Assembly (NCBI GenBank): GCA_030583685.1
Contig: CP129470.1
Location: forward strand, 20,345-84,344
DNA: 64,000 nt
Source: Candidatus Dojkabacteria bacterium
GTDB lineage: Bacteria > Patescibacteriota > Dojkabacteria > GCA-002793355
Direction: 5' to 3'
Of this stretch, positions 16,927 to 60,351 are shown piece after piece. Below the pieces are notes generated by a model. That model worked only from the letters and a program-made list of their open reading frames with translations, did no database searches and was not told the DNA's origin. The position numbers were made by a program, and so were the translations under genes. How positions within the stretch are numbered: position 1 is the stretch's first letter; the number at the start of each line of letters is the position of its first letter.

Positions 16927-16942
16927 TATCTCGATTTTCAAT

Positions 16943-20698: not shown

Positions 20699-20715
20699 AT
20701 TATGAAATAATCAAT

Positions 20716-23697: not shown

Positions 23698-23708
23698 TTA
23701 TTCTTATT

Positions 23709-26459: not shown

Positions 26460-26471
26460 AAAGTCAATCTT

Positions 26472-27650
26472 ATGGTTAAATTCATACCAAAATTTAAAGA
26501 TCGTAGTCTATTAGACACAAACTGTAATGAGTTTATTGTTGACGCAGATGTAACAATTAAGAACAAGAATAGCTTTCAAGAGATAGCTACTCAAATCCCT
26601 AATTATGTTATAAACCCAGTTACTAGTCGATTTCCATATAGCTCAACAAAAACTAGTGAAAAATTGCCATATTTTTTTAGCAAAAATGAATTTGCTAAAA
26701 TTCTTTCGAATTCCTCAGAGAGACTTAAAAAGTTAATAATTCCTTGTGTTAAATTTTTACTAGAAACAAATTCCAAGAATGTAATACCCCCATATTTTTA
26801 TGCAGAAGACATTACATCTCAGACCTTTAATGTTAATCTTGAAAATATTGCAAATGTTATAAAGTTTAAGGAAAAAGAAAATGTTCAATTTAGTATCTAT
26901 CCAGTCATAAATGTTTCTTCAAATATTCTTACTAATGATAATTCTATTAGATATGTCGCCTCTATGTATATGTCTGATGAATATTACGAAAATATCTCTG
27001 GTTACTATATATTGATTGATGAGTTTGATGCAAATAAAGCAGATCCTTCAACATTAATTGGGTATTTAAAATTAATCAAAGCACTTTCCAAAAAGGAAGT
27101 ACACTTATTGAATATTAATTCATTCGGATACATTGGACTTTTAGCTGGTGCAACTAGCTTTTCTAGTGGATTAGCTAGTGGTGAAAGTAGCTCTGTAAAT
27201 AATTGGATTAGTGATGATAATCAAAATGCTCCAAGACAAAGACCTCCAAAGTTTATTTATGTACCCGAAATATTCTCATATATTGACGAAATAGAATTAC
27301 AGAAAGCAAATTACACTTGTAATTGCTCACATTGTAATGGGACTCTCCCAAGTACTACTATTTCAAAGAAAAAACATTTTCTTGCATGTAGACAAAGAGA
27401 TATCAAAAATAACTTCTCAGGCGAGTTTGATTCAGATTTATTAGCCTGGGAAAATGTCTTTTCGGAAGCCTTGTCGTATGCTAACAATTTATTAAGTTTG
27501 AAAAAAACAACACGATCATATAGCACATTAGTAACTCCGATTAATAAATGGAATAGTATCTTACCAGTTCTAAAAGACTTAAAAAGTTTAGAAGAAAATG
27601 AAGATCTATTAGCCCAAATTCTAAATGAAATTGATGAAACTAATGATTAG
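26472..27650 (+). CDS. Hypothetical 392-aa protein with a CxCxxC...H putative zinc site; partner of the PHP-ATPase
   Basis: Starts 12 nt after the upstream stop; motif CNCSHCNG...KKKHFLAC near residue 285; no other recognisable motif. Confidence 0.4.
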   Translation: MVKFIPKFKDRSLLDTNCNEFIVDADVTIKNKNSFQEIATQIPNYVINPVTSRFPYSSTKTSEKLPYFFSKNEFAKILSNSSERLKKLIIPCVKFLLETNSKNVIPPYFYAEDITSQTFNVNLENIANVIKFKEKENVQFSIYPVINVSSNILTNDNSIRYVASMYMSDEYYENISGYYILIDEFDANKADPSTLIGYLKLIKALSKKEVHLLNINSFGYIGLLAGATSFSSGLASGESSSVNNWISDDNQNAPRQRPPKFIYVPEIFSYIDEIELQKANYTCNCSHCNGTLPSTTISKKKHFLACRQRDIKNNFSGEFDSDLLAWENVFSEALSYANNLLSLKKTTRSYSTLVTPINKWNSILPVLKDLKSLEENEDLLAQILNEIDETND

Positions 27651-28083
27651 AATTGTCATTGATACAAATGTTGCATTATCGGGACTTCTTAGCTATACAT
27701 CTCCTGAACGCATGATAATTAATTATGCAATGCAAAAAAGAATTTCATTGATAGGTTCAAGAGAAACGTTTTCAGAATTCAAAGAAAAGGTTCTAGAAAA
27801 CAAACGATTTATCAAAGTAGCTAAGGATTTAATGTTTCCACAAAATCAGATCCTATCCCAATACAAGGCGTTAGTTAAGTTTGTTGAAATTGAGCAATCA
27901 TTAAAAGAATTACATTTTTGTGAACAAGATCCCGACGATGACATGTTTTTGCATGTAGCAATTCAATCTGGCACTAATATTCTAATAACAAACGATAATC
28001 ATCTCAGAAAATTAAAGAAAATCAATGAAATAAGAATAATTACACCAACAAAGTTCTTAGAAGTTATTAGAAAGCACTTTTAA
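27625..28083 (+). CDS. PIN-domain protein (predicted RNase/nuclease). Probable true start at the MIRIV Met around 27643, overlapping the upstream stop
   Basis: IRIVIDTNVALSGLL (Asp1), later acidic residues (E..D..ITNDNHL), length about 145 aa, typical of VapC-like PIN. Confidence 0.65.
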   Translation: MKLMKLMIRIVIDTNVALSGLLSYTSPERMIINYAMQKRISLIGSRETFSEFKEKVLENKRFIKVAKDLMFPQNQILSQYKALVKFVEIEQSLKELHFCEQDPDDDMFLHVAIQSGTNILITNDNHLRKLKKINEIRIITPTKFLEVIRKHF

Positions 28084-28734
28084 CATATCATTCCAAAAAT
28101 ACTCACATACATAGTTTTGTTTTGATGAAATGATTTCATCTTTTTGCTTTAATGGCCTGTGAATAAATTGTATTGTTCCATGTTTTAATGTTATGAGACC
28201 AGTATTTGACTTAATTAATTCATTAATAGGAACTAGATGTATTTTATTTGACGGTAAAGCTAAATATACTCTATTTGCAAAGGTTTTATAGCGAGAAGCT
28301 TGAACTAAGCCTCTTTTCCAATCAGAAAGTTTTGATTCAATAGCGATTATATTGTTAGATAGTGGTGCCCAGCCATTAACCTTTATGTAGAAATGTTTGT
28401 CGATTTCCTTTATGAAATGACCTTTAATTAACTGCTTAATTATACGACTTTTCAAATAGCCTTTTGACAATCCAACATAATTAATTATATCTTCGAATGA
28501 GGATGGTTTCTTACGATTTTCTGTTATTAATTCAAGTACCTTAAAATAATTCTCACTTTCTAATTCGTTAACCTGCATGTAATTTTCTCTTTTCCGAATT
28601 CTCTTGTAATTAATTTTTAATCCAACGATATCTGCGACACCATATCCCGAATCTACTTCTGTCTTAGTAATATACCCAGATAATGATAACTTTTCTGCAA
28701 TTGTTTTTGAAAATTCTAATTCTGTCATATCCAT
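28057..28734 (-). CDS. Hypothetical protein, possible wHTH plus PD-(D/E)xK-like nuclease fold; convergent with the PIN gene
   Basis: N-terminal helical segment, then a D-x(n)-E-S-K pattern (VADIVGL...IAIESKLSDWK). Weak, motif-level only. Confidence 0.3.
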   Translation of the reverse strand: MDMTELEFSKTIAEKLSLSGYITKTEVDSGYGVADIVGLKINYKRIRKRENYMQVNELESENYFKVLELITENRKKPSSFEDIINYVGLSKGYLKSRIIKQLIKGHFIKEIDKHFYIKVNGWAPLSNNIIAIESKLSDWKRGLVQASRYKTFANRVYLALPSNKIHLVPINELIKSNTGLITLKHGTIQFIHRPLKQKDEIISSKQNYVCEYFWNDMLKVLSNNF

Positions 28735-39574: not shown

Positions 39575-41245
39575 ATGCATACAGAACAAATACTGAAAGA
39601 GACATTGGGGTTAACCGATTATCAAACTCTCGTTTATCTCTCGCTTATTGAGAAATCCGCTACCGCAGGACAGCTGTTTCGACGGTTGAATATTAATCGT
39701 GCAACACTTTATCGAATTCTTGAAGAATTAGTCACGCTGAGCTTAGCAATACGAAAACAAATCAAATCGCGAATGTACTTTGAGGCGCTTCATCCAGACG
39801 CATTAATGGATTTGTACGAGAAACGAAGAATCTCATACGAAGAAAAGGGAAGACTGCTTGAGCGAACAGTTCATGAGCTACTTCACAAAGCGCAGTCACA
39901 ACCACTCGATGCGTCAATCACCATTGAGAAAGGAATCTCTGCACATTACAAAAAAATGAGACTGAAAATGTCCTGTAAAGAAAAAATTATTAGGATGAAA
40001 GTAAATAATGATTCAAATATTTACGATTACACTGAATACCCCGAAGGAAAAGATTATCTGTCTTTTTTATCAAAATTCACCAAACACTGCGCTGAAAATG
40101 ATATTTTCACGAAACTCCTAGTTCACACCAATCTTTCGACATCAATGCGAGATGTTAATATCTCAAATCCATTTGAACTAAAAGAATCACGAATTTTACC
40201 AGCTGAAATACTTCCTACCGTAAGTTTTGAAGTATTTGATGACTACACAATCTTCACCGTACGAAACGATAAACCTGAAGAAATGGTCGTTATTACAATT
40301 CGGAACCAAATTACCGCAGATCTCATGAAATCTCTTTATGACTTTATTTTTGAAAGAAGCATTCAAACCTATAAAGATAGCCCCGTTCCCACCTTTAAAA
40401 CCAACGGAAATGCCAATCTACCGTTGATTGGCATTGGTACCTCAGGAATTGGAGGCTACTGGTACGGTGCGAACCCCTATGTTGATGACACCAGTGATGT
40501 TGATAAACTTCGTCACGCTATGAGTAAAGGTATACGCTATATTGATGCCTGTTTGATGTATGCTGACGGGCACGCGGTAGAATTGATTGCCAAAGCGATT
40601 AAGAATATCGCAAGGAGCGATCTTTTTATTAATGGAAAACTGACACGTGTTGGAGGTATCCCACTCAAAAACGCACGAGAAATAGCGGAACAGTGCGATC
40701 AGTACCTGAAAAAACTTGGAATTGATTACCTTGACCAGTTTCAAATTCACAGCTTGCGAACATTAGGAGATGTCCCTCAGGAAGAGGCAATTGAGCAAAT
40801 TGGAAACCTCATTACTGCGGGAAAAGTACGGTACTGGGGCGTGAGTAACTATGACATGGAAAATCTGAAAATTGCGATGTCTGTTATTAAAGAACCAATT
40901 CATTCAAACGAAATTCCTTTTGGTGTATTCGCCAGAGAGTATGAAAAGAATGGAACACTCGACTTTATGAGAACGCATGGAATTACCACAATTGCTTACT
41001 TCACTGTAAAAAAAGGTGGAATGCTTGTTGATACCTTTTTTAATTCAGATGAAGATTCTATTCTCCAGCAATTAGCTAAAAAGTACCAAAAAACTCCGAC
41101 ACAAATTGCTATTAATTGGGTCACTCACCATCCACGTACTATGGCGGTTATAAAAGCGACCAACGGAACACACATCAACGAAAATGTTGCTGCAGTGGGG
41201 TGGAAAATGGAGGAAGCGGACTATCGAGCAATAGGGGAAACGTGA
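39575..41245 (+). CDS. Fusion of TrmB-like wHTH transcriptional regulator (N-terminus) with aldo/keto reductase (C-terminus)
   Basis: N-terminal LTDYQTLVYLSLIEKSATAGQLFRRLNINRATLYRILEEL (TrmB-type HTH). C-terminal AKR motifs IGIGTSGIGG, YIDACLMYADGH (catalytic Y/D region), K, WGVSNY. Confidence 0.7.
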   Translation: MHTEQILKETLGLTDYQTLVYLSLIEKSATAGQLFRRLNINRATLYRILEELVTLSLAIRKQIKSRMYFEALHPDALMDLYEKRRISYEEKGRLLERTVHELLHKAQSQPLDASITIEKGISAHYKKMRLKMSCKEKIIRMKVNNDSNIYDYTEYPEGKDYLSFLSKFTKHCAENDIFTKLLVHTNLSTSMRDVNISNPFELKESRILPAEILPTVSFEVFDDYTIFTVRNDKPEEMVVITIRNQITADLMKSLYDFIFERSIQTYKDSPVPTFKTNGNANLPLIGIGTSGIGGYWYGANPYVDDTSDVDKLRHAMSKGIRYIDACLMYADGHAVELIAKAIKNIARSDLFINGKLTRVGGIPLKNAREIAEQCDQYLKKLGIDYLDQFQIHSLRTLGDVPQEEAIEQIGNLITAGKVRYWGVSNYDMENLKIAMSVIKEPIHSNEIPFGVFAREYEKNGTLDFMRTHGITTIAYFTVKKGGMLVDTFFNSDEDSILQQLAKKYQKTPTQIAINWVTHHPRTMAVIKATNGTHINENVAAVGWKMEEADYRAIGET

Positions 41246-41257
41246 TTTACATAGAAA

Positions 41258-41965
41258 TTATGTTCGAAACATGTCTTTTATATACTGTGGTTGAAGAGCC
41301 AACAAGACAGGTACTCTATTTGTAGATTGCTGTATATTACTTGCCTTTTTCCGAATTTTCCCATGTGGATTTTCGTTTTGTATAATCTCCCATTTTACAA
41401 AACACTCCTGTAAGAAAGCACTTATTGCCTCAGAATTGGGAAACGAACTATAAAAACTCATAGTTTTATTCTCGAATTTCCTCGGAAGTGTTGTGCAGGA
41501 AAACGGTATAACGGCTCCATCAGTAAATTCAATCTGAAAATCAACCATGCTCTCTGACCGGTCAGCTGCGCTGCCTATTTGAATTTCTTTAACTGCACTA
41601 AGATTTGAGAAGTTCAAAATGACATAGGCTTGGCATGCCATTTTTTCTAGGAGGTTTCGAAATGGAACAATTTTCTCTTTAGGTGCTTTAGCTCTATTAA
41701 ATTCGATGATTTTAGCTCTAAAATACCTTCTTTCCTCTCGTCCCGATATCATTTTGTGTAAAATTGTCAGTTCAATGGTTCGTAATTCAGTCTGTCGTAA
41801 AACAACTTCCAAAGCAGGTATCTGCAAATATCGCTTATATAGTTTATCAATATCTTGTTGGTAAGGTTCAAACGAAAATTTGATTTTTTCTTTTTTTCCT
41901 GTCAAATATAACTCTCTTTCTCCCATATTACCGCGTATTATACCAAATTTGACCATTCTTTGCAC
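41258..41965 (-). CDS. Hypothetical protein
   Basis: 235-aa ORF, no motif recognised; good coding periodicity. Confidence 0.3.
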   Translation of the reverse strand: MQRMVKFGIIRGNMGERELYLTGKKEKIKFSFEPYQQDIDKLYKRYLQIPALEVVLRQTELRTIELTILHKMISGREERRYFRAKIIEFNRAKAPKEKIVPFRNLLEKMACQAYVILNFSNLSAVKEIQIGSAADRSESMVDFQIEFTDGAVIPFSCTTLPRKFENKTMSFYSSFPNSEAISAFLQECFVKWEIIQNENPHGKIRKKASNIQQSTNRVPVLLALQPQYIKDMFRT

Positions 41966-42007
41966 GTCTTATATACTTGTAAGACATAAACTGATTGCCC
42001 CGAACTC

Positions 42008-43495
42008 ATGCAAGAACAATATCTTTATCTTGGAAACGAAGAAGTATACAACGGCCAATATATGCTTACGGTCTTTAAATTGGTCCCCTATGGTGACATT
42101 AGTCTAGAAGATGTTGCTTCTGAAATCGCAGCAGAATCCTCGACTGGCTCAAACCTCAAGGTCGGAACAATGACACCATATTCCCAAGGAATTGACGCGA
42201 GAGTCTATAAAATTGATAAGGAGAAAAATCTTGCGTATATTGCATACCCCTGGAGCATGTTCGACCGAGTCGGAAATGTTCAGAATATTCTCACATTTAT
42301 CGCTGGAAATGTATTTGGTGTTTCAGAAGTTAAAGAATGCAAACTCCTTGATGTGTGGTTTCCTCCGCAAATGCTTTCTCAATACGATGGGCCATCAGTA
42401 ACCCTTGATGATATGCGTGATTACTTGCAGAATTATGATAGACCTGTTCTTGGAACAATCATCAAACCAAAGATTGGGTTAACGTCAACTGAGTACGCAG
42501 AAGTTTGTTACGATTATTGGGTTGGAGGGGGAGATTTCGTGAAAAACGATGAACCTCAAGCCGATCAAGTCTTTTCTCCATACGAAAAAATGGTAGTGTC
42601 GGTTCGTGAAGCAATGGATAGAGCAGAGGATGTCACTGGCCATACGAAAGTACACTCCTTCAACGTTTCCGCTGCAGACTTTGACACAATGCTGAAACGC
42701 GCAGAATATGTTGCATCTGTAATGAAACCGGGAAGTTATGCCTTCCTCGTTGATGGCATTACTGCAGGCTGGACTGCGGTACAAACGATTCGCCGTCACT
42801 TTCCGAATGTATTCCTCCATTTTCACCGCGCAGGACATGGGGCATTCACTCGACGAGAGAATCCAATTGGTTATTCAGTTCTTGTACTTTCCAAGTTCGC
42901 TCGTTTAGCTGGCGCTTCAGGAATCCACACAGGAACTGCAGGAATCGGTAAAATGGCAGGAGATGCAGTAGAGGACATCACTGCGGCACAAAATATTCTC
43001 AGACTGCGCGCAAAAGGAATCGCTTTTGACCAAACATGGAGTGAAATTCCAGAAACAGATTTAGACATCCAAGCAGCAATCAAGAAAGAGGAAGAATTGT
43101 GGTCACAGGGAGCGCAAGGGATTATGAAATCTCGCAGCGACGGACTCGATACCGTTCTTGAGAGAAAAACTTCATGGAGATTAATCAACAAAACTGCACC
43201 AATCATCTCAGGAGGGCTCAACCCTGTCTTGTTACCGCAATTTATTGATACGATTGGAACGATTGACTTTATTACCACCATGGGCGGAGGAGTTCATTCT
43301 CATCCAGACGGAACGACCAAAGGAACAATGGCGGTTGTACAAGCATTTGAAGCCTGGAAAAATGAAATTCCACTCGCAGAATATGCAAAAGATCACCCAG
43401 AGCTTGCAAAGGCAATTGAATACTACGACAAACACGGCACACAAGCACATCGAGCAGAAAACAAAGCTGTGTACAACAACGAAGAAGCAGTATAA
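42008..43495 (+). CDS. rbcL: Ribulose-1,5-bisphosphate carboxylase/oxygenase large subunit, form II/III (archaeal/CPR-type), catalytic residues intact
   Basis: GTIIKPKIGL (K175 region), GGGDFVKNDEPQ (carbamylated Lys plus D/E metal ligands), HFHRAGHG (H294/R295), GIHTGTAGIGKMAG (H327/K334), C-terminal GGGVHSHP. No small subunit in the window. Confidence 0.85.
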   Translation: MQEQYLYLGNEEVYNGQYMLTVFKLVPYGDISLEDVASEIAAESSTGSNLKVGTMTPYSQGIDARVYKIDKEKNLAYIAYPWSMFDRVGNVQNILTFIAGNVFGVSEVKECKLLDVWFPPQMLSQYDGPSVTLDDMRDYLQNYDRPVLGTIIKPKIGLTSTEYAEVCYDYWVGGGDFVKNDEPQADQVFSPYEKMVVSVREAMDRAEDVTGHTKVHSFNVSAADFDTMLKRAEYVASVMKPGSYAFLVDGITAGWTAVQTIRRHFPNVFLHFHRAGHGAFTRRENPIGYSVLVLSKFARLAGASGIHTGTAGIGKMAGDAVEDITAAQNILRLRAKGIAFDQTWSEIPETDLDIQAAIKKEEELWSQGAQGIMKSRSDGLDTVLERKTSWRLINKTAPIISGGLNPVLLPQFIDTIGTIDFITTMGGGVHSHPDGTTKGTMAVVQAFEAWKNEIPLAEYAKDHPELAKAIEYYDKHGTQAHRAENKAVYNNEEAV

Positions 43496-43501
43496 TAGTA
43501 G

Positions 43502-44689
43502 ATGCAACAGCCACTCGCCTCGCGAATGAGGCCAACTTCTTTGGTTGGTTTTGTCGGGCAACAAGAGATTATTGGGGAAAACGCACCACTCACAAAACTT
43601 ATTACACATAACAAAGTCCCCAGTATGGTCTTTTGGGGTCCTCCAGGCACGGGAAAAACAACCTTGGCAGAAATTATTGCACACGAAGTTTCTGCAGACT
43701 TTCAACGACTTTCTGCAGTGACAGAAGGCAAAGACGCACTCAAAAAGATTATTTCAACAGCGCAAAAAAACAAAGAACAAGAACGACAAACTATTCTTTT
43801 CATCGATGAAATTCACAGGTGGAATAAAGCACAGCAAGATGCACTGCTGCCCTATGTTGAGAATGGCACAATCATACTCATTGGGGCAACAACCGAAAAC
43901 CCAAGTTTTAGTATTATAGCTCCGTTATTATCTCGAACCCGAGTCTTCATATTTAAAGAACATACACCAGAAGCTATCCAAACAAAACTACGTGAAGCAG
44001 CTGAACACCTTAACGTAAAACTTTCGTCCGATGTATCTACCTATATCAGCGATCTAGCCCATGGAGACCTACGTTTTGCGCTCAACTCGTTTGAAATTGC
44101 GATACAAATTGCTGGAAAAAAAACTCTCACAAAAGAAATAGTAGAGGTCGCCATGCAACGATATCTTCGCTATGATAAAAACGGTGAAGAACACTACAAC
44201 ATTATTTCCGCAGTTCATAAAAGTTTGCGCTCGAGTAACGCCACAGCAGCTGTATACTGGATAGTTCGAATGCTTGAAGCAGGAGAAGACCCACTGTATA
44301 TCGCTCGTCGCTTAGTTCGTTTTGCTTCAGAAGATATTGGGAATGCGCAGACAAATGCACTACTACTCGCGAATCAGGTCTTTCAAACGTGTAAAAATAT
44401 TGGCATGCCTGAATGTGGAGTAGCCTTAGTGCAACTCGCTGAATACCTCGCAAAAGCTCCAAAGAATAATGCCGCATACAACGCATATCAACAAGCAGTC
44501 TCCGATGTAAAGAAGTATGGTGCGCTCGGTGTTCCTCTCCATTTACGCAATGCACCAACCGCTTTCATGAAAGACATCGGGTACGGAAGAGGATACGAAT
44601 ATGATCACGACTTAACATCAAAAAAATCAGAGCAAGAATGTCTTCCCGATGAACTGAAAGGGAGGAATTACTTTACGGACTCGGAGTAA
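43502..44689 (+). CDS. rarA: Replication-associated recombination protein A (AAA+ ATPase RarA/MgsA)
   Basis: MRP.SL..FVGQ N-terminus, Walker A GPPGTGKTTLA, Walker B ILFIDEIHR, sensor and C-terminal MgsA helical domain. Confidence 0.9.
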   Translation: MQQPLASRMRPTSLVGFVGQQEIIGENAPLTKLITHNKVPSMVFWGPPGTGKTTLAEIIAHEVSADFQRLSAVTEGKDALKKIISTAQKNKEQERQTILFIDEIHRWNKAQQDALLPYVENGTIILIGATTENPSFSIIAPLLSRTRVFIFKEHTPEAIQTKLREAAEHLNVKLSSDVSTYISDLAHGDLRFALNSFEIAIQIAGKKTLTKEIVEVAMQRYLRYDKNGEEHYNIISAVHKSLRSSNATAAVYWIVRMLEAGEDPLYIARRLVRFASEDIGNAQTNALLLANQVFQTCKNIGMPECGVALVQLAEYLAKAPKNNAAYNAYQQAVSDVKKYGALGVPLHLRNAPTAFMKDIGYGRGYEYDHDLTSKKSEQECLPDELKGRNYFTDSE

Positions 44690-45554
44690 CTATGTTTTCC
44701 TCAACTTCAGCAGGAAAAAACCATTCATATATTTCGTTCATATATTCAGTATCAACATCCCAATGCGTCTTTCCCTTCAGTGTCACCAATTCAAGCGGCA
44801 CAGAGTGCTTTTTGAAATACGTTGCTAATTCCTCAGCTACCCAATAGGGAACATTCACGTCAGCCGTTCCATGCCAAACCTTCAATCTGACTTGGCTGAA
44901 TTGTTTGATTTGCGCTGCGGAGTATGTTTCAATTTGCTGTGCAGGCGCAAGGAGTGCAATTTTTTTCACTTCTTTTGGATATGTCACCACATGACGCATC
45001 GCAGGCATTCCACCCATGCTAAAGCCTAGAATATACACGTTTCCTGAGGTCGGATAGCGATCCTGTACCCATTTAATGAGCGCTCTTGAATCTTCGACTG
45101 CAACGATTCGACCAAAATTATCCCCATGCTGGTTTGAAGCCAGAAAAGCAACATTTCTTTCTGTAAAGAAAGAACCGTATTCACGCATATTTTTCATAAC
45201 TTGCTCAGAAAAATTCGTAGTAATTCTTTGCGTTGAACCGTGATAGTACATAACTATTGCTGGTGGCTTATCCTCCTGTATTTTCATTGGATAGGCTACA
45301 TATCCCTGTTCTCCACCGAGCTTTGGCGTTTTCTCAAAAAAATGCTCAGCGCCAGGTGCTGCTTTTTCCTCGAACATGATGGTAACAGGAGTGGGTTCAG
45401 GAGTTGTCGGCAGAGGGGTTGGCGTGATGGTCTCTGGATTATCTTGTTGTTGCTCATCTCTGTTAACGGATAATTGTCCCGAAAAGTAAAGCATTGCGAA
45501 CACAATAAGTGAGAAGAGGGTCAACAGGAGTGAAGCGTGAAGTAATCCTTTCAT
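44673..45554 (-). CDS. Secreted/anchored alpha/beta-hydrolase (esterase/S9-like) with Pro/Thr-rich linker
   Basis: N-terminal hydrophobic anchor, TPTPLPTTPEPTPVT linker, nucleophile elbow ILGFSMGG (GxSxG), downstream Asp and His (HWD). Confidence 0.65.
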   Translation of the reverse strand: MKGLLHASLLLTLFSLIVFAMLYFSGQLSVNRDEQQQDNPETITPTPLPTTPEPTPVTIMFEEKAAPGAEHFFEKTPKLGGEQGYVAYPMKIQEDKPPAIVMYYHGSTQRITTNFSEQVMKNMREYGSFFTERNVAFLASNQHGDNFGRIVAVEDSRALIKWVQDRYPTSGNVYILGFSMGGMPAMRHVVTYPKEVKKIALLAPAQQIETYSAAQIKQFSQVRLKVWHGTADVNVPYWVAEELATYFKKHSVPLELVTLKGKTHWDVDTEYMNEIYEWFFPAEVEENIVTPSP

Positions 45555-47431: not shown

Positions 47432-47460
47432 TTGTCCCTCTCTTGACATTGGTGTATAAT
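47432..47460 (+). promoter_or_regulatory. Predicted sigma70-type promoter of surface-protein gene 1 (-35 TTGTCC, 17-nt spacer, -10 TATAAT within the GGTGTATAATTG motif)
   Basis: Hexamers read directly from the sequence; the same GGTGTATAATTG motif recurs upstream of the paralog at 49031-49042. Confidence 0.35.
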
Positions 47461-47492
47461 TGTTAACCTTAATTTATTTATATAAGGTCACT

Positions 47493-48950
47493 ATGCTTAG
47501 ATTTCAACAGCTTATAGCGAAAACACTTTCCGTTGTTTTACTCTTTTCTTTATATGTAGCGGCACCACTCTTTTCCTTTGCTGCAAACAATCCAACTAGC
47601 GCATATAATGACAAAAAGGACAATTCAAAGGTAGAAATTTGTCATAGAACAAGTTCCAAGAATAATCCATACGTGTATGTAAAAATCTCTAAGAATGCAC
47701 AGCACACACACGAAGATCATCATCAAGATTTTGCTTACAAGGGACCAAAAAATCCCTCTCAGAAGACTGGAGATAACTGGTGTAATGATAATGCACCAGA
47801 AAACAACCATGAGGATGAAGATGAGGATGAAGATGAAGACAAAAAGGATAAGAAGGACAAGAAAGTCAACATTTGTCATGCGACAGGAAGCAACAGTAAC
47901 CCTTATGTCGCAATTTCAGTTGAAAAGAGCTCACTGACTGCACACCTTTCTCATGGAGACTTTCTCTATTTTGGTCCACTAAAACACGGCAAGATTGACG
48001 ATAAAAAGGGCGATAAATGGTGCCGCGACAACGCTCCTGAGCCAACAGGAACGCCAACCGATACACCGACCGATACACCAACCGATACACCAACTGATAC
48101 ACCAACTGATACACCAACCGACACACCAACCGACACACCAACTGACACGCCAACTGATACTCCAACCGATACACCGACCGACACACCAACTGATACGCCA
48201 ACTGATACTCCAACTGACACTCCAACCGATACACCGACTGACACGCCAACTGATACTCCAACCGATACACCGACCGACACACCAACTGATACGCCAACTG
48301 ACACTCCAACCGATACACCGACTGACACGCCAACTGACAAGCCAACTGATACTCCTGTGGAAACAACACTTCCTCCCGTAACCACAACCACTGTACCAAC
48401 CACTCCTCCAGGTGGTGGAGGAAACCCTCCAGTCATTGTCAATTTGCCCCCAGTTACTACTCCAACCCCAGACGTTCAGGGAGAAACAACTGATCCTGAG
48501 CCTGAGGTGTTAGGAGCACTCAGCTGTGCAAACCCAGTCAAACTCGTCGGTATTACCTATGTAGACGAAAATAAGAACGGTGCCTATGACTTCGGTGAGG
48601 ATTTATTATCCAATATCACGGGTAAAGTGACATACACCGAAAACGATGTTGAATACTTTGTTGGCTACTTCATCAGTGATAATGAAGGTCGCTGGGAACT
48701 TCCCGTTTGTCCTCGAGAATACGATGTAACCATCAATAGAGGCTCAATTCCACAAGGAATTATGGATAGTGAAGAAGTTCACAAGGTAACAGTACTTGCG
48801 ACTCAACCAGAGACACTACTCTTTATGGCGTTGCTCATAACAACGTCCTGGACCTGGTCTTGGTGGTGGCTCCTCCTTGCGTTATTCATTCTCGCAGTCA
48901 TCTATTACCTTTATAGAAGAAGAAGGCAATATATCGCAGATAACACCTAA
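47493..48950 (+). CDS. Cell-surface protein: signal peptide, two ICH-x-T-S-x3-NPYV repeat modules, acidic DEDEDEDEDKKDKKDKK stretch, about 25 TPTD tandem repeats, SdrD-B-like Ca-binding domain (YVDENKNGAYDFGED), C-terminal W-rich TM anchor
   Basis: All elements seen directly in the translation. ATG at 47493 preferred over the upstream TTG at 47460 because of promoter placement. Confidence 0.6.
   Translation: MLRFQQLIAKTLSVVLLFSLYVAAPLFSFAANNPTSAYNDKKDNSKVEICHRTSSKNNPYVYVKISKNAQHTHEDHHQDFAYKGPKNPSQKTGDNWCNDNAPENNHEDEDEDEDEDKKDKKDKKVNICHATGSNSNPYVAISVEKSSLTAHLSHGDFLYFGPLKHGKIDDKKGDKWCRDNAPEPTGTPTDTPTDTPTDTPTDTPTDTPTDTPTDTPTDTPTDTPTDTPTDTPTDTPTDTPTDTPTDTPTDTPTDTPTDTPTDTPTDTPTDTPTDTPTDTPTDKPTDTPVETTLPPVTTTTVPTTPPGGGGNPPVIVNLPPVTTPTPDVQGETTDPEPEVLGALSCANPVKLVGITYVDENKNGAYDFGEDLLSNITGKVTYTENDVEYFVGYFISDNEGRWELPVCPREYDVTINRGSIPQGIMDSEEVHKVTVLATQPETLLFMALLITTSWTWSWWWLLLALFILAVIYYLYRRRRQYIADNT
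48051..48353 (+). repeat. Perfect in-frame 12-nt tandem repeat (ACNGAYACNCCR)n encoding (TPTD)n, about 25 units
   Basis: Visible periodicity gataca-cca/ccg-ac(c/t); synonymous-site variation only; generates spurious ORFs on the opposite strand. Confidence 0.9.
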
Positions 48951-49072: not shown

Positions 49073-52000
49073 ATGAAAATCCCAAGACTAGGAAAAATAT
49101 TCACAAATACCACCGCAATTATGATTGCGCTCTGGTTGTATGTTGTCTCGCCATTATCAACAATATATTTCCTTGGAGGAATTCCAAGGGTCAGTGCAAA
49201 TAATGGAAACAATGTCGCAATATGTCATGTCAACGACAAGATTGTGGAAGCAAGCAAAAATTCTGCAAATGGAACAACAAAGATACTTGTCCCTGAAAAC
49301 ATCGTTGCACTTGGGCTGGACCAGATGACTCTATGGTGCAAAGCTGGAGCTCCTACAGAGTGGCCACCTGTAACTCCCTCGCCCACGTCCACACCCACAC
49401 CTTCACCTACTGTTACAGATACACCCACACCTTCCCCAACTAGTGAGGAACCGGTCATTACCTCCCTCGATGCTCCCACTAACCTTCGCTTCTCCTCACC
49501 AACCCTTGCGTGTGGTGCAATTACCAATGCTACGCCAGTCACAGTTGAGTGGAATGCAGTTGAAAACGCAGTTTCTTATGACTATGAAATTGACTATCCA
49601 TTACCTGCAGGCGGTCGATCCCCATGGTCTACGGTTAAATATATGACCTCACATTCTGGCCCAATCAATGAAGGAACCTCTTATATCAGAGTTCGCGCAG
49701 TCGCAGCAAACGGAGTAAAATCCGACTGGAGTGAACCATGTGCAATCACAAGTGACATCACAGCACCAGCAAAACCAACCGGGTTACAATGGCTTAACCT
49801 TTATCGTTCGCAGACCTATGCCTGCGGAGCAACAGCACCAAGAGCTCCATACATTCCGGACTGGAATGATATTTCTGATGACCCAACATTTTCTCACTAT
49901 GAATATACTTCTTTTTGGCCAAACGGAGACAAAGGACTCATTGAGATGTCACTCACTACCTCAGAATTTGACAACGATTGGCCACCACCATACGACGGAT
50001 TTTATGGGTTTGCAGTTCGCTCTGTAGATTTCGCAGGCAATAAATCAGCATGGGCACTTTCAGATGACACCCTTACTGGCAGCTGCAAAATCGAACTGCT
50101 TGCAGATGAAGAAGCACCAGAGTTACACCTTCCCGAAGATTTTACTGAAGAAGCTCAACAACAATTTGGCGCAGTCGTATCCTATATTGCGTCAGCAACG
50201 GATGATGTCACATCACCTATCGAAGTTTCATGTACACCAGCGTCTGGAACTCTTTTCCCCATGGGACCGACGACGGTAAATTGTTCTGCAACTGATGATT
50301 CAGGGAAAACAACCACGGGGAGTTTTACCGTAACCGTAGAAGATACTATTGCACCACAAAAGCCAACTGGTCTTCACCGAGATAACCAAGCACGAACAAA
50401 ATCGTATGTATGTGGCGATGTGGTTACGCTACAAACTCTCATACCCGATTGGGACGATATCACTGATGACCCAACATTTTCGCACTTTGAATATACCTCT
50501 TTCAACCCGGGCGGACAAGTTGGAATTAACGAGCAGGTAGTTTTCGTTTCCGAATACCTCCATACCTGGATACCAACAGTTGAAGATACACACGGCTTTG
50601 CAGTTCGCTCCGTAGATTATTCGGGGAACAAATCAGAATGGGCACTAACTGCCAAAACACTTGAGGGTAGTTGTCAAATCACCTATGATTCGACGGCACC
50701 AGCTGTTGAAATCACCCATCCTACTGATATCTATTTAAGCGGAGAAGTACCCATCAGAGGAACCGTACAAGATGATAATCTTCTTCGCTACTGGACTGTC
50801 GTTCATAAAAAAGGAACGACATCGCCAACAATTGCTGGTCTAGGAACGGTCAACACTACCGTTACCTTTACAGATAAACTCCTTTTCACCTGGGATACAA
50901 CTGAAACACCAGATGGAGAATATACCATCAAGCTTGAGGCAAGAGATCAAGCAGACAACAAAAACAGCAGTTCTGTTCACTGGAAAGATGTCATTGTCGA
51001 TAATACGGCACCAACCGTCGATCTTGTGTTTCCAGTTATCGGAACCACGGCAACCTATTTTCAAGCAGTTTTTAGTGAAAATGTTCGACAAGAAGATGCT
51101 GAAAACCCTGAAAATTACTTTTTAAACAATTGGCCAGGAGCAGGTGGATCTGGAAACCTTCTTGGTGATGCAACAATTGAGTACGACGAAACCACGTTTA
51201 CCGCAACAATTACTTTTACCAATCCTGGGTGGTATGTTTCGCCAGAACAACAATGGGGTGTATCAAATGTTCGTGATCTTGCAGGCAACCCTCTTTCAGT
51301 TTCACCCTACATAGAATATTCAACACCGATGATTGCACCAGTGACAACTAACGACTCACCATCAGGCTGGCAGAATTCAGACATTACCGTAACCCTAACC
51401 TGTGATGACGGAACACTTCTCGTCGATGCAAGTGGCTGTAAAACTACCTATTATCGTGTCAATGGTGGCTCTTGGCAAACAGGGAACACTGTTGTTCTCA
51501 CAGAGGAAGGAGAACACACACTAGAATATTATTCCACGGATAATGCAGGAAACAGTGAAACAGAAAAGACTGCGACCAATGTCATTAAAATCGACAAGAC
51601 CTTACCCTTCGTCTTTGTCCCGGAAAATCAAACCTTTGACGAGGACGAAACAGGAACATACTTTTACACATTCGAGCCCACTGCTTCGGAAAATGAATTT
51701 GAAACACTCGCGGAACTAACTGACACACTCCCAGTGAATTGTAATTATGACCCGACCGGATACGCGTACCCAGCAGGAGTAACCACAGTGACCTGTTCAG
51801 CAACTGACCGAGCAGGTAATGTGAAATCAGAAAGCTTTACGATCACCGTCAATAATCTTGTTCCTAGTGTCACCATTGCGGCTGAACTTCTAGGGTCAGG
51901 AGCATATACGTTTACTGCCGCAGTTCTTGGTGGAAACACACCATACACATACGCTTGGAGTGGCAGTTGCTCAGGGACAACCGCACAGACGACAACCGCA

Positions 52001-52627
52001 ACAACCCCAGGGACATACAACTGTTCTCTCCTCGTCACTGATGCTGATGGTGATACAGACACCGAAAGTATCTCTCGAACGATTCCTGCACCAGTAATTG
52101 CAACAGCAATCATTCCTGCAGTGCAAGGAGTAACAACCGAGGACGAGGAAGATGAAGAGACAGAGGAGACCGAAGAAGAACAAGGAGAAGTACTTGGTGA
52201 AAGAATTTGTAGTGATAAAACGGCATTTACCGCGATATTTTATGTCGATAAGAACAATAATGGGCAATTCGATGAAGGAGAGGCGTATGAGGGAACAGTC
52301 GAGGGTTCAATCACCTATGAGGTTGATGGAATCACCTATACGGCAGACACCTTCAAAGCCGAATTTAACGGACTCTTTGTTGGATCAGTTTGTCCTGGCG
52401 ACTATACAATAAAGGTTACACCAACGTCACTTCCGAATACTGTTGACGTTGCGGGTGTCTATACGATAACCGTTTCGGAAACTGGGCCAAATAATGTTTT
52501 CTTTGCACTTCTCCAGAAAGAAGCAACCCAAAAATCACTCTGGTGGTTGTGGTGGCTGATCGCTACAATCGTTGCCTTTATGGTGTTCATTGGATTGCGT
52601 TACAGAAAGAACCAGTACAGTTCTTAA
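49073..52627 (+). CDS. Giant (1184 aa) cell-surface adhesin-like protein: signal/anchor, one ICH module, PT-rich linker, two copies of a roughly 190-aa repeat, two HYR-like Ig-fold domains, further Ig/FN3-like beta domains, acidic EDEEDEETEETEEEQ stretch, SdrD-B-like domain, C-terminal W-rich TM anchor
   Basis: Repeat pair P(A/Q)KPTGL...IPDW(N/D)DI(S/T)DDPTFSH(Y/F)EYTSF...GFAVRSVD(F/Y)(A/S)GNKS(A/E)WAL. HYR-like signatures ...CSATDDSGKTTTGSFTVTV and ...VTCSATDRAGNVKSESFTITV. C-terminal architecture shared with the upstream paralog. Confidence 0.6.
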   Translation: MKIPRLGKIFTNTTAIMIALWLYVVSPLSTIYFLGGIPRVSANNGNNVAICHVNDKIVEASKNSANGTTKILVPENIVALGLDQMTLWCKAGAPTEWPPVTPSPTSTPTPSPTVTDTPTPSPTSEEPVITSLDAPTNLRFSSPTLACGAITNATPVTVEWNAVENAVSYDYEIDYPLPAGGRSPWSTVKYMTSHSGPINEGTSYIRVRAVAANGVKSDWSEPCAITSDITAPAKPTGLQWLNLYRSQTYACGATAPRAPYIPDWNDISDDPTFSHYEYTSFWPNGDKGLIEMSLTTSEFDNDWPPPYDGFYGFAVRSVDFAGNKSAWALSDDTLTGSCKIELLADEEAPELHLPEDFTEEAQQQFGAVVSYIASATDDVTSPIEVSCTPASGTLFPMGPTTVNCSATDDSGKTTTGSFTVTVEDTIAPQKPTGLHRDNQARTKSYVCGDVVTLQTLIPDWDDITDDPTFSHFEYTSFNPGGQVGINEQVVFVSEYLHTWIPTVEDTHGFAVRSVDYSGNKSEWALTAKTLEGSCQITYDSTAPAVEITHPTDIYLSGEVPIRGTVQDDNLLRYWTVVHKKGTTSPTIAGLGTVNTTVTFTDKLLFTWDTTETPDGEYTIKLEARDQADNKNSSSVHWKDVIVDNTAPTVDLVFPVIGTTATYFQAVFSENVRQEDAENPENYFLNNWPGAGGSGNLLGDATIEYDETTFTATITFTNPGWYVSPEQQWGVSNVRDLAGNPLSVSPYIEYSTPMIAPVTTNDSPSGWQNSDITVTLTCDDGTLLVDASGCKTTYYRVNGGSWQTGNTVVLTEEGEHTLEYYSTDNAGNSETEKTATNVIKIDKTLPFVFVPENQTFDEDETGTYFYTFEPTASENEFETLAELTDTLPVNCNYDPTGYAYPAGVTTVTCSATDRAGNVKSESFTITVNNLVPSVTIAAELLGSGAYTFTAAVLGGNTPYTYAWSGSCSGTTAQTTTATTPGTYNCSLLVTDADGDTDTESISRTIPAPVIATAIIPAVQGVTTEDEEDEETEETEEEQGEVLGERICSDKTAFTAIFYVDKNNNGQFDEGEAYEGTVEGSITYEVDGITYTADTFKAEFNGLFVGSVCPGDYTIKVTPTSLPNTVDVAGVYTITVSETGPNNVFFALLQKEATQKSLWWLWWLIATIVAFMVFIGLRYRKNQYSS

Positions 52628-58541: not shown

Positions 58542-59228
58542 TCAAGTTCGTTCTCGCAAAATTATCACTTCGCCATCGCGTAACGCTCGATATGTAATCT
58601 CCTGCTTCTTGTAATATTCAACCACCTGTTCAATCATTTCACTTTCTTGGTGAGCTGAACGATAATGAGGAGCAAATGCAAAATCGATTATTCCCAATCC
58701 CTCATAAAGTGCGGGTTGCTGGTATGCAACCTGTGTCTCCTCAGGGTAATCGACTAGTTCTAAGCCTTTCAGTGAAGGCGCAAGAACACAAACGCCGGCG
58801 CTAAATCCACCATAGACAAAATCCTTTCTCGTATGATGCATTTCTTGCATAATAAGATCGAAACCACTGAGTTTATACGCCAATCGCAATACAAATGCAT
58901 TTCCTCCACGAACCCAGACACCACCAAACTCTTGCATTTTCTTATCCAACTCGTTTTGTTTGCCAAAATAATTGCGTAGATCAATACTTTCCGGAAAAAG
59001 CCCGAGGTCTGTCAATGACGATAATTGCTCTTCTTCACTTAACTTTCGCCTGGTGATATCAGAAAATGAATCAAGCGCATTAGAAATAAGGGCAACCCTC
59101 CTATTGGTTCCATACATATTCGAAAACTGTTCAGGGTTATCGCCAAACCGATATGAAGAAAGATAGAGATGCATGTACGTACGATAATACCACGATACGT
59201 AAATTCCAAAAAATACGCTTACCTCCAC
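58542..59228 (-). CDS. Peptidase family S51 (dipeptidase E / cyanophycinase-like)
   Basis: Nucleophile elbow YGGFSAGVCV (GxSAG), class I glutamine-amidotransferase-like fold length, conserved His near the C-terminus (FAPHY). Confidence 0.55.
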   Translation of the reverse strand: MEVSVFFGIYVSWYYRTYMHLYLSSYRFGDNPEQFSNMYGTNRRVALISNALDSFSDITRRKLSEEEQLSSLTDLGLFPESIDLRNYFGKQNELDKKMQEFGGVWVRGGNAFVLRLAYKLSGFDLIMQEMHHTRKDFVYGGFSAGVCVLAPSLKGLELVDYPEETQVAYQQPALYEGLGIIDFAFAPHYRSAHQESEMIEQVVEYYKKQEITYRALRDGEVIILRERT

Positions 59229-60205
59229 GAAGGAATACCATCAATGCTTTTCGCCTGCATGATACTATTGTTGATTGCGTTAACTACCGCCTCTTGAGCG
59301 CCAATACCAATAAAATCTACCAGCGTTAATGGATTCATCTTGGGGAATACTTTTCGTTCACAAGATCTGGATGATAAGGCAAAAACAACATCACCATCCA
59401 TATTTGTGTGAATAGGATGAATTGCTCGTGCATAGCCATCGTGAGTGAATTCTGCCACTTTCATGAGCTGATTTTTGGTCATCGAAACATTAGTTGCAAT
59501 AACAGTAAGAGTCGTATTACCGGATAAATTCATCGTTGCGGTTAGATGTTCTAATGAATCTCCAAATTCCGAATGAATAGCAGTATACTTTCCACTTTCC
59601 GAATAGAACTCGCCTGTAATCGGGTTTATAATATCGCCAAGCGCATTTGTTACTGTGAATGCTGCAACAATAATGTCGTGAGGGAGGAAAGATACTCCAA
59701 TACCAAATCCCCCTTTCATAAGCTTCCCTTTAAACCATTTACCGACAACAGCACCTGTCCCCACACCTACATTTCCTTGCTCAGGTAGCTCATCAGATAT
59801 ATTTCTTACTGCCTGCCGTCCTTCCTCGAGTGCAGGATGAGTATTAGTTCCGACAGCGATATCATAAATTACTGCACCTGTAGTTGCAGGAATAATTCCC
59901 GCTCGGGTTTGGTTACCAATTCCTTTTTCTACTAATTCTTCCATGACTCCGACAGCGGACGCCAAACCGAATGTACTTCCTCCTGTAAGAACCACTGCAT
60001 GAGTTGATTGATTTGCAGCTTTCGGATCAAAGGCTGGAGTATTAAAAGTTCCTGTATTTGAGCCCCGAATATCAATCCCAATATCTGCGGATTGCTCAGC
60101 AATGAACGCAGTTACACCTGTAATATTTTTCAAATCGGTATAGTGACCTATCCTGAGTCCTATTCGCTTGAGTAAATCGTGCGGTAATTGTTGGATCCTT
60201 TCCAT
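59219..60205 (-). CDS. DmpA/OAT-like (peptidase S58 / P1 family) protein; start at MERIQQ to avoid overlapping tRNA-Gly
   Basis: Gly-rich beta-strand motifs ITGVTAFIAE...IGIDIRGSNTGTFN and LTGGSTFGLASA typical of DmpA/ArgJ Ntn-fold enzymes. Motif-level only. Confidence 0.45.
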   Translation of the reverse strand: MERIQQLPHDLLKRIGLRIGHYTDLKNITGVTAFIAEQSADIGIDIRGSNTGTFNTPAFDPKAANQSTHAVVLTGGSTFGLASAVGVMEELVEKGIGNQTRAGIIPATTGAVIYDIAVGTNTHPALEEGRQAVRNISDELPEQGNVGVGTGAVVGKWFKGKLMKGGFGIGVSFLPHDIIVAAFTVTNALGDIINPITGEFYSESGKYTAIHSEFGDSLEHLTATMNLSGNTTLTVIATNVSMTKNQLMKVAEFTHDGYARAIHPIHTNMDGDVVFALSSRSCERKVFPKMNPLTLVDFIGIGAQEAVVNAINNSIMQAKSIDGIPSWR

Positions 60206-60277
60206 ACGTACTATTTTATCAGATACAAGACAAAATAATGGGATACTACCCACCTTTCGGGTGAACACTATCCCATT

Positions 60278-60351
60278 AGCGGGAAACGGGACTCGAACCC
60301 GCAACCCTCAGTTTGGAAAACTGATGCTCTAACCAATTGAGCTATTCCCGC
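60278..60351 (-). tRNA. tRNA-Gly (anticodon TCC)
   Basis: Minus-strand sequence GCGGGAATAGCTCAATTGGTTAGAGCATCAGTTTTCCAAACTGAGGGTTGCGGGTTCGAGTCCCGTTTCCCGCT: 7-bp acceptor, anticodon loop TTTCCAA, T-loop TTCGAGT, discriminator U. Confidence 0.85.

What the first reader, a model, noticed from the sequence alone, without database searches (positions are those of the whole stretch)
42008..43495. Catalytically intact form II/III RuBisCO large subunit without a small subunit and without Calvin-cycle neighbours
All key residues are present: the KPK Lys, the carbamylated Lys followed by D-E in GGGDFVKNDEPQ, H-R in HFHRAGHG, and H...K in GIHTGTAGIGKMAG. It is therefore not a form IV RuBisCO-like protein. 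The context (hypothetical gene upstream, rarA downstream, no prk, no rbcS) fits the nucleotide-salvage (AMP to R15P to RuBP to 3PGA) role described for archaeal and CPR form III enzymes. The usual partners (AMP phosphorylase, R15P isomerase) are not adjacent in this window.
Basis: partly seen in the sequence, partly recalled or inferred. Interest (0 to 1): 0.6.

Follow-up and report, generated by a model that had tools for sequence, protein, structure and literature searches.

The report
Ordinary form II/III RuBisCO of Dojkabacteria
This gene encodes an intact CO2-fixing enzyme (RuBisCO) of the "form II/III" type already described in tiny uncultivated CPR bacteria, where it is thought to recycle the ribose of nucleotides rather than support autotrophy, so it is a new example of a known thing rather than a discovery.

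Summary
The ORF at 42008-43495 (+, 495 aa) is real and is a catalytically intact RuBisCO large subunit. All 21 active-site positions checked against spinach numbering are intact or carry the form II/form II-III variant, while form IV controls in the same alignment show the expected losses. A bootstrapped tree places it in the form II/III clade (98.4%), sister to form II (100%) and far from form IV. Its closest genomic relatives are Dojkabacteria (WS6)/Patescibacteria, a CPR group. The 64-kb window holds no small subunit, phosphoribulokinase, AMP phosphorylase or R15P isomerase, and rarA follows 6 nt downstream.

None of this is new. Form II/III RuBisCO in Dojkabacteria, its orphan position away from pathway partners and its long insertion were published in 2016-2019. 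CPR-type form II/III enzymes have since been crystallised and assayed.

It is an extended version of the 29-residue "Rubisco assembly domain" of Methanococcoides burtonii, keeps all four Mg2+-lock ligands and is predicted to form a three-helix module. The nucleotide-salvage role is inferred from the literature and cannot be tested from this window. Interest is low.

The parts
42008..43495 (+). rbcL: form II/III RuBisCO large subunit, 495 aa
   Evidence: ORF; Pfam PF02788 and PF00016; NCBIfam NF010002 at 562.7 bits, above the 489 cutoff; PDB best hits 9dyp, 5mac, 8vgs; tree; AlphaFold model with pLDDT 90.1 and pTM 0.91, TM 0.98 to 9dyr
42053..42373 (+). N-terminal domain (aa 16-122), carrying E43, S48, N49 and N101, which complete the partner subunit's active site
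   Evidence: Pfam RuBisCO_large_N covers aa 16-122; residue mapping
42542..42553 (+). Codons for K179 (the carbamylated lysine, equivalent to K201), N180, D181 and E182 (Mg2+ ligands, equivalent to D203/E204)
   Evidence: Alignment to spinach 8ruc/1ir1; invariant in all 119 relatives
43040..43177 (+). Extended Rubisco assembly domain (RAD) insert, aa 345-390, between barrel helix alpha6 and strand beta7. It is 44 residues longer than form II at this loop, against 27 for M. burtonii.
   Evidence: Two-segment alignment to form II 4lf1; insert survey; lock ligands D351 and D353 plus W390 and R391 conserved; predicted helices 352-366, 368-375 and 383-391, with 10-residue block mean pLDDT of 74-95 across the insert
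41949..41977 (+). Promoter-like site TTGACC-17 nt-TATACT, about 30 nt upstream of the rbcL ATG (tentative)
   Evidence: 10 of 12 consensus match; the scan as a whole is not above chance (9 sites found, 8.8 expected), so only its position speaks for it
43502..44689 (+). rarA/mgsA, an AAA+ recombination-associated ATPase 6 nt downstream. Probably co-transcribed; listed as context, not as a functional partner.
   Evidence: Pfam MgsA_C, AAA_assoc_2, AAA; adjacency kept only in relatives of about 80% identity and lost in L004, L006, L007, L012

Best explanation
The gene encodes a functional form II/III RuBisCO large subunit of a Dojkabacteria (WS6, CPR/Patescibacteria) bacterium. It works without a small subunit. 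L2 dimers form the two active sites at the N-domain/barrel interface, with K179 carbamylated and Mg2+ held by D181/E182. A built-in assembly domain (aa 345-390) carries the Mg2+ 'lock' ligands D351 and D353, which pair with E165 and D169 on helix alpha1 of a neighbouring dimer. That should let substrate-bound dimers assemble into higher oligomers, as shown for M. burtonii RuBisCO and for RAD-bearing form II/III enzymes. In the cell it most likely carboxylates ribulose-1,5-bisphosphate made from nucleotide or nucleoside ribose (AMP to ribose-1,5-bisphosphate to RuBP, by an AMP phosphorylase and an R15P isomerase encoded elsewhere in the genome). The two 3-phosphoglycerate produced would enter lower glycolysis for substrate-level ATP.

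Shown here: identity, form, intact active site, conserved lock site, lack of partners in the window. Inferred: activity, oligomerisation and the pathway role.
For: Identity and form. Intact catalytic residues, with form IV controls failing in the same alignment. Organism: the closest genomic loci are Dojkabacteria/Patescibacteria at 80-81% identity with shared synteny. The same locus was recovered in at least 6 sequencing runs. RAD; the lock residues are defined in PMC5399129. L2-to-L10 switching of two RAD-bearing form II-III enzymes is reported in PMC13454268. Pathway: PMC5113843 reports that all CPR genomes with RuBisCO, including the closed WS6-1 genome whose enzyme is 68-73% identical to this one (L006), have both AMP-pathway homologues and lack PRK, and that a PER form II/III enzyme complemented a RuBisCO-deletion strain. 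PMC6389311 reports that form II/III genes are less often close to deoA/e2b2 than form III-c genes, so an orphan position is normal. Enolase lies about 8 kb from rbcL in WS6-1.
Against: No AMP phosphorylase, R15P isomerase or lower-glycolysis gene is in the 64-kb window, so the pathway is not shown for this organism. No enzyme of the long-insert subgroup is known to me to have been assayed. In PMC5113843 the WS6 protein that was tested was inactive, although that was a III-like protein lacking catalytic residues, not a form II/III enzyme. T65 is Ser here, but it is also Ser in 105 of 119 relatives and in 9dyp/9dyr, which was crystallised with CABP.
Confidence: 0.8

Rival explanations
1. The enzyme scavenges or detoxifies RuBP that arises by another route (for example from PRPP, or from nucleoside phosphorylase plus ribose-1-phosphate kinase) rather than through AMP phosphorylase. 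The enzyme is the same; the feeder pathway differs.
For: PMC5113843 lists the PRPP route and the nucleoside phosphorylase/ADP-R1P kinase route as alternatives that cannot be excluded in CPR. [quoted passage not shown] No AMP phosphorylase is in the window.
Against: PMC5113843 reports both AMP-pathway homologues in every CPR genome with RuBisCO and judges the heat-dependent PRPP route unlikely at about 14 degrees C.
Confidence: 0.12
2. It is a Calvin-cycle carboxylase, with phosphoribulokinase and the other CBB genes encoded elsewhere in the genome.
For: A PER form II/III enzyme can support autotrophic growth in R. capsulatus. Some CPR with form III-c RuBisCO do encode PRK (section heading in PMC6389311).
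Against: No PRK is in the window. [quoted passage not shown] A CBB cycle is therefore not feasible in a genome of about 1 Mb of this kind.
Confidence: 0.04
3. The downstream AAA+ gene (rarA) is a dedicated RuBisCO activase or remodeller, co-transcribed with rbcL.
For: It starts 6 nt after the rbcL stop on the same strand, with no convincing terminator between them. Known RuBisCO activases (Rca, CbbX, CbbQ) are AAA+ proteins (general knowledge).
Against: The protein has the full MgsA/RarA architecture, including MgsA_C (E 2.8e-56). The adjacency exists only in the clade at about 80% identity. In L002 the gap is about 500 bp. At 72% identity or less the neighbours are MscL, an M48 peptidase, an ABC-F-type ATPase, a NYN-domain protein and a glycosyltransferase. 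Tight spacing is normal in compact CPR genomes.
Confidence: 0.02
4. It is a RuBisCO-like protein (form IV) or a decayed gene with no carboxylase function.
For: None beyond the absence of pathway genes in the window.
Against: All catalytic residues are intact and invariant across 119 relatives, while the form IV controls fail. Form IV separates with 100% bootstrap. The MtnW and OiaX models score far below their cutoffs. The ORF is uninterrupted and identical in at least 6 independent assemblies.
Confidence: 0.01

Closest known systems
Form II/III RuBisCO of Dojkabacteria WS6-1 (WS6_GWF2_39_15, LBWK; Wrighton et al. 2016, PMC5113843), which is locus L006
   Same: Same phylum and same RuBisCO form. 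68% identity over the full length and 73% on gap-free columns. Same long insert at the same site (46 versus 44 residues beyond form II; published as '48 aa'). Lock residues conserved. rbcL is not next to deoA/e2b2.
   Different: Different gene neighbourhood: glycosyltransferase and ABC-F-type ATPase there, versus TrmB-AKR and RarA here. The middle of the insert has diverged in sequence.
Methanococcoides burtonii RuBisCO (PDB 5mac; Gunn et al. 2017, PMC5399129)
   Same: 60% identity (68% on gap-free columns) and the same clade. RAD at the same position. All four Mg2+-lock ligands plus the W/R contact are conserved. No small subunit.
   Different: It is archaeal, and its RAD is 29 residues in a loop-helix-loop. 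The window's insert is about 17 residues longer and is predicted to have three helices. RAD-alpha2 contact residues differ: MbR D385 is K387 here and MbR K222 is D208 here.
PDB 9dyp/9dyr (titled M. burtonii, but 93% identical to metagenome cluster P0065 and only 59% to 5mac)
   Same: It is the best sequence and structure match: E 2.6e-210, 65% identity, TM 0.98 of the target. It shares Ser at the T65 position and the CPR-type N-terminus MQ(K/E)(E/Q)Y. It was crystallised with the transition-state analogue CABP.
   Different: Short insert (27 residues beyond form II).
Classical form II RuBisCO (R. palustris 4lf1, R. rubrum 9rub)
   Same: Sister clade with 100% bootstrap. Shares the form II-type active-site variants N49, I151 and M316. 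Passes the same NCBIfam equivalog NF010002.
   Different: 47% identity. Form II has no RAD insert and works in the CBB cycle with PRK.
Archaeal form III RuBisCO of the AMP (pentose bisphosphate) pathway (T. kodakarensis 1geh)
   Same: The proposed physiological role is the same: carboxylation of RuBP derived from nucleotides. No small subunit.
   Different: Only 35% identity. The form III equivalog TIGR03326 scores 329 against a cutoff of 497. It falls outside the II/III plus II clade.

Membership tests
RuBisCO large-subunit superfamily | N-terminal alpha/beta domain plus C-terminal TIM-barrel catalytic domain | tested here: met
   PF02788 E 1.5e-26 and PF00016 E 2e-94; model with pTM 0.91, TM 0.83-0.98 to solved RuBisCOs
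Bona fide RuBisCO (forms I-III), as opposed to form IV RLP | Full set of catalytic and RuBP-binding residues (E60, N123, K175, K177, K201, D203, E204, H294, R295, H298, H327, K334, S379, G380, G381, G403, G404) | tested here: met
   All are present in the window. The form IV controls 2zvi, 2oek and 4nas lose E60, N123, K177, R295, H298 and G380 in the same alignment.
Bona fide RuBisCO (forms I-III) | RuBP-dependent CO2 fixation | not testable with these tools
   Needs an enzyme assay. Relatives were assayed or bound CABP (PMC5113843; 9dyr, 8vgs, 5mac).
Form II/III RuBisCO | Falls in the clade containing M. burtonii RuBisCO, sister to form II and separate from form III | tested here: met
   NJ tree, 346 gap-free columns, 500 bootstraps: II/III clade 98.4%, II/III plus II 100%. 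Bit scores are 634-702 against form II/III chains, about 344 against form II and about 220 against form III.
Form II/III RuBisCO (RAD-bearing subgroup) | Insertion between helix alpha6 and strand beta7 (Rubisco assembly domain) | tested here: met
   Insert at aa 345-390, 44 residues beyond form II (27 in 5mac, 8vgs and 9dyp). 100 of 119 close relatives have 38-54.
Form II/III RuBisCO (RAD-bearing subgroup) | Mg2+ lock ligands (MbR E179, D183, D366, D368) and the W388/R389 contacts | tested here: met
   Window E165, D169, D351, D353, W390, R391. The four ligands are 95-100% conserved in the long-insert relatives, R391 in 99% and W390 in 87%.
Form II/III RuBisCO (RAD-bearing subgroup) | Ligand-induced assembly of L2 dimers into L10 | not testable with these tools
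   Needs native PAGE or SEC-SAXS with and without CABP. Reported for two RAD-bearing form II-III enzymes (PMC13454268).
Form II/III RuBisCO | No small subunit gene | tested here: met
   No RbcS family among ORFs of at least 150 aa. Precomputed Pfam for all called genes, including those of 129-148 aa, in the 16-kb locus L014 shows none. The rest of the genome was not seen.
AMP / pentose bisphosphate (nucleotide salvage) pathway | AMP phosphorylase (DeoA-like) in the same genome | not testable with these tools
   Absent from the window and from all 19 fetched loci (tblastn with 4ga5, best E = 4; no Glycos_transf_3). The whole genome is not available. Reported present in all CPR genomes with RuBisCO (PMC5113843).
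AMP / pentose bisphosphate (nucleotide salvage) pathway | Ribose-1,5-bisphosphate isomerase (e2b2) in the same genome | not testable with these tools
   Absent from the window and all loci (tblastn with 3a11, best E = 2.2; no IF-2B). The whole genome is not available.
Calvin-Benson-Bassham cycle RuBisCO | Phosphoribulokinase and CBB genes in the genome or neighbourhood | tested here: not met
   No PRK or other CBB gene in 64 kb. Only the window was tested.
Form III RuBisCO (TIGR03326 equivalog) | Score above the curated cutoff | tested here: not met
   329.2 bits against a cutoff of 497.45; 35% identity to 1geh
Form IV RuBisCO-like proteins (MtnW, OiaX) | Score above the curated cutoffs; characteristic active-site substitutions | tested here: not met
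   MtnW 132 and 107 bits against cutoffs 409 and 514; OiaX 155 against 700; none of the substitutions present
RuBisCO activase (for the neighbouring rarA) | Conserved genomic association with rbcL across the family | tested here: not met
   Adjacent only in L001-L003 (about 80% identity), absent at 72% identity or less. Domain architecture is MgsA/RarA.

The most novel reading that the evidence does not exclude
The extended, predicted three-helix assembly domain (46 residues against 29 in M. burtonii) is the norm in Dojkabacteria-type form II/III enzymes (100 of 119 close relatives) and has no solved structure. It may build a different dimer-dimer interface, giving an oligomer other than the L10 ring, a different ligand dependence, or a docking surface for another protein, instead of simply copying the M. 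burtonii lock.
Probability: 0.2. Interest if true: 0.4.

Novelty: new member of a known kind. Interest (0 to 1): 0.15.

Why it matters
It matters little beyond cataloguing. The result confirms that this Dojkabacteria lineage carries the RuBisCO that is thought to let very small, fermentative CPR cells turn scavenged nucleotide ribose into 3-phosphoglycerate and ATP. The only part with some open value is the long-insert assembly domain. It dominates this clade, keeps the Mg2+-lock residues, and has not been structurally or biochemically characterised as far as the searched literature shows. That makes it a reasonable target for work on how small-subunit-free RuBiSCOs control their own oligomerisation.

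Tried and rejected
(1) I suspected the adjacent 545-aa and 344-aa ORFs at 1675-4346 of being AMP phosphorylase plus R15P isomerase on size alone. They are a Na/Pi cotransporter and an acyltransferase.

(2) I considered RarA as a RuBisCO activase. Rejected because the synteny is not conserved beyond the clade at about 80% identity and the protein has the standard MgsA architecture.

(3) I looked for a functional neighbour conserved across the family in 6 more distant loci. There is none: the neighbours are MscL, an M48 peptidase, an ABC-F-type ATPase, a NYN-domain protein, a glycosyltransferase and a methyltransferase.

(4) The species-specific ORF at 41258-41965 has no Pfam or PHROG match and remains unexplained.

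(5) The Biopython bootstrap timed out. I replaced it with a numpy NJ on Kimura-corrected distances. No maximum-likelihood tree was possible in the sandbox.

(6) A literature search for '9DYP' found nothing. Its identity was inferred from sequence.

(7) The promoter/terminator scan over 41000-45000 was not above chance overall. Only the position of one site is suggestive.

(8) I could not search the rest of this genome or the 1.05-Mb BroJett019 contig for pathway partners.

Full report
OBSERVATION. Pfam assigns RuBisCO_large_N (aa 16-122, E 1.5e-26) and RuBisCO_large (E 2e-94). The feature is real and cannot be chance.

WHICH RUBISCO. NCBIfam's ribulose-bisphosphate carboxylase equivalog NF010002 scores 562.7 bits (cutoff 489). 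The form III equivalog TIGR03326 (329 against 497) and the form IV models MtnW and OiaX all fail their cutoffs. Against all PDB sequences the ranking is steeply graded. 9dyp, 5mac and 8vgs score E 1e-210 to 1e-190. Classical form II scores about 1e-102, form III about 1e-64 and form I about 1e-55.

To place the protein properly I needed reference sequences. I used sequences recalled from memory only as bait and took the deposited PDB chain sequences from the printed alignments: spinach 1ir1/8ruc, T. kodakarensis 1geh, 8dht, B. subtilis MtnW 2zvi, 2oek, 4nas, R. palustris 4lf1, 5mac, 8vgs and 9dyp. I aligned these with the 119 nearest protein clusters and 8 genomic relatives. A neighbour-joining tree on 346 gap-free columns, which exclude the insert, with 500 bootstraps gives the following. 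The II/III clade (window, all relatives, 5mac, 8vgs, 9dyp) has 98.4% support. II/III plus form II has 100%. Form IV apart has 100%. Identity on those columns is 70.8% to 9dyp, 68.2% to 5mac, 47.1% to form II, about 35% to forms III and I, and about 28% to form IV. An AlphaFold2 model (pLDDT 90.1, pTM 0.91) superposes best on 9dyr, 9dyp, 8vgs and 5mac (TM 0.94-0.98 of the target, rmsd 1.3-2.3 A for the best chains), and then on form II.

ACTIVE SITE. In spinach numbering, all 21 positions examined are intact or carry the variant normal for form II or II/III. The window residues are E43, S48, N49, N101, I151, K153, K155, K179, D181, E182, H273, R274, H277, H307, K315, M316, S401, G402, G403, G426 and G427. 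The Thr65-to-Ser change is shared by 105 of 119 relatives and by 9dyp/9dyr, which was crystallised with the transition-state analogue CABP. In the same alignment the three form IV controls lose E60, N123, K177, R295, H298 and G380, so the test does discriminate.

ORGANISM AND RECURRENCE. There are 3,966 relatives at E of 1e-30 or better. The named ones come from Dojkabacteria, Microgenomates and Patescibacteria. The closest genomic loci are Patescibacteria bacterium BroJett019 (81%, on a 1.05-Mb contig) and Dojkabacteria MAGs (80%). The published closed WS6-1 genome is at 68% and Methanolobus at 60%. The identical protein, with identical gene order, occurs in at least six independent sequencing-run assemblies. 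The window is therefore from a Dojkabacteria (WS6) CPR bacterium.

CONTEXT. I scanned all 53 ORFs of at least 150 aa against Pfam. There is no RbcS, PRK, Glycos_transf_3 (AMP phosphorylase) or IF-2B (R15P isomerase). A six-frame tblastn with the verified T. kodakarensis AMP phosphorylase (4ga5) and R15P isomerase (3a11) found nothing better than E = 2.2 in the window or in any of the 19 fetched loci.

Downstream, 6 nt after the stop codon, lies a standard MgsA/RarA gene. Upstream on the same strand is a TrmB-HTH/aldo-keto-reductase fusion. Between it and rbcL, on the minus strand, sits a 232-235-aa ORF with no family match. That ORF is present in this species but missing from the 80%-identity relatives, where the AKR-rbcL gap is only about 200 bp.

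The order pilC-pilB-pilin-TrmB/AKR-rbcL-rarA-hydrolase is conserved only in L001-L003. At 72% identity or less the neighbours are unrelated: glycosyltransferase, ABC-F-type ATPase, NYN-domain protein, MscL and M48 peptidase. Enolase lies about 8 kb away in WS6-1. So no neighbour is a conserved functional partner, and the idea that RarA is a RuBisCO activase is rejected.

A promoter-like TTGACC-17-TATACT sits about 30 nt upstream of the ATG, but the scan overall is at chance level.

Against form II the alignment breaks into two segments, leaving query residues 345-389 unmatched. Measured between W344 and P398, the window has 44 residues more than form II. [quoted passage not shown] Long inserts of 38-54 residues are the rule among the nearest relatives, at 100 of 119 clusters.

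This site is the Rubisco assembly domain (RAD) of M. burtonii. There it sits where small subunits sit in form I and locks neighbouring L2 dimers through a Mg2+ ion bound by E179 and D183 (helix alpha1) and D366 and D368 (RAD helix alphaJ) (PMC5399129). All four ligands are conserved in the window (E165, D169, D351, D353), together with the W388/R389 contact pair (W390, R391). The four ligands are 95-100% conserved in the long-insert family, R391 in 99% and W390 in 87%. The extra residues, about 17, lie in the middle of the RAD. The model predicts three helices (352-366, 368-375, 383-391), with 10-residue block mean pLDDT of 74-95 across the insert. Some secondary contacts differ: MbR D385 is K387 here and MbR K222 is D208 here.

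A 2026 survey reports that two RAD-bearing form II-III enzymes switch from L2 to L10 on CABP binding. Its characterised set includes a Dojkabacteria and a Gottesmanbacteria enzyme (PMC13454268).

MECHANISM. Shown: this is an intact form II/III large subunit with a conserved assembly lock, encoded apart from any pathway partner. Inferred from established work on the family: L2 dimers are the catalytic unit. K179 is carbamylated and binds Mg2+ together with D181 and E182. Substrate binding promotes RAD-mediated assembly. In vivo the enzyme converts RuBP derived from nucleotide ribose into two 3-PGA, which go to lower glycolysis.

The salvage role is the published reading for this phylum. All CPR genomes with RuBisCO examined had both AMP-pathway homologues and no PRK. 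WS6 genomes keep only the PGA-to-acetate part of glycolysis. A PER form II/III enzyme was active and complemented a RuBisCO-null strain (PMC5113843). Form II/III genes are less often close to deoA/e2b2 than form III-c genes (PMC6389311). I could not verify the partners for this genome.

NOVELTY AND VERDICT. Observation confirmed; interpretation supported. The class, its presence in Dojkabacteria, its orphan context and its long insert are all published, and CPR-type form II/III enzymes have since been crystallised and assayed. This is a new member of a known kind, and interest is low (0.15). The residual open point is the structure and behaviour of the extended RAD.

Noticed in passing
window 17598-28734 (next to tRNA-Leu/tRNA-Pro at 16843-17017): A low-GC island (29-34% GC against 40-43% elsewhere) lies directly after two tRNA genes. 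It carries a type I restriction-modification system (hsdM, hsdS, hsdR), a 916-aa AAA/ABC-like ATPase, a 392-aa unknown protein and a PIN-domain protein. It is probably a horizontally acquired defence island.
   Followed up: partly
window 39575-41245 (+): An unusual fusion of a TrmB-type sugar-regulator HTH domain with a full aldo/keto reductase domain (556 aa). It is the conserved upstream neighbour of rbcL in this lineage (L001, L003, L014-L019). Whether it regulates rbcL is unknown.
   Followed up: partly
window 41258-41965 (-): A 232-235-aa ORF wedged between the TrmB/AKR gene and rbcL. It is called as a gene in all same-species contigs but is absent from the 80%-identity relatives, where the gap is about 200 bp. 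It has no Pfam or PHROG match and is a lineage-specific insertion of unknown function.
   Followed up: partly
PDB 9dyp/9dyr (external): These entries are titled 'Rubisco from Methanococcoides burtonii', but the chain is only 59% identical to the M. burtonii chain 5mac. It is 93% identical to metagenome cluster P0065 and has the CPR-type N-terminus. The title or source organism looks wrong, or it is a different metagenome-derived enzyme.
   Followed up: partly
window 47460-48950 (+) and 49073-52627 (+): A 496-aa protein with about 30 tandem 'PTDT' repeats and a C-terminal hydrophobic segment, followed by a 1184-aa protein with HYR and bacterial Ig-like domains. They are probably cell-surface or adhesin proteins, as expected for an episymbiotic CPR cell.
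   Followed up: no
window 60278-60351 (-) and ORF 59219-60304 (-): tRNA-Gly overlaps the mechanical TTG start of the peptidase S58 ORF, so the true start codon must lie further inside the ORF.
   Followed up: no
L006 1077-2357 (-); also L007 5111-6385 and L012 1825-3102: An enolase gene lies 5-9 kb upstream of rbcL in three more distant Dojkabacteria loci. It was Pfam-confirmed in L006 only. This is loosely consistent with 3-PGA feeding lower glycolysis, but the genes are not adjacent and no enolase is in the window.
   Followed up: partly
window 28-1272 (+) and 1675-3312 (-): An ATP synthase alpha/beta-family subunit with a V/A-type C-terminal domain lies at the window edge, with a Na+/phosphate cotransporter beside it. 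Phosphate import would be relevant to a phosphorolytic nucleotide pathway, but this is generic.
   Followed up: no
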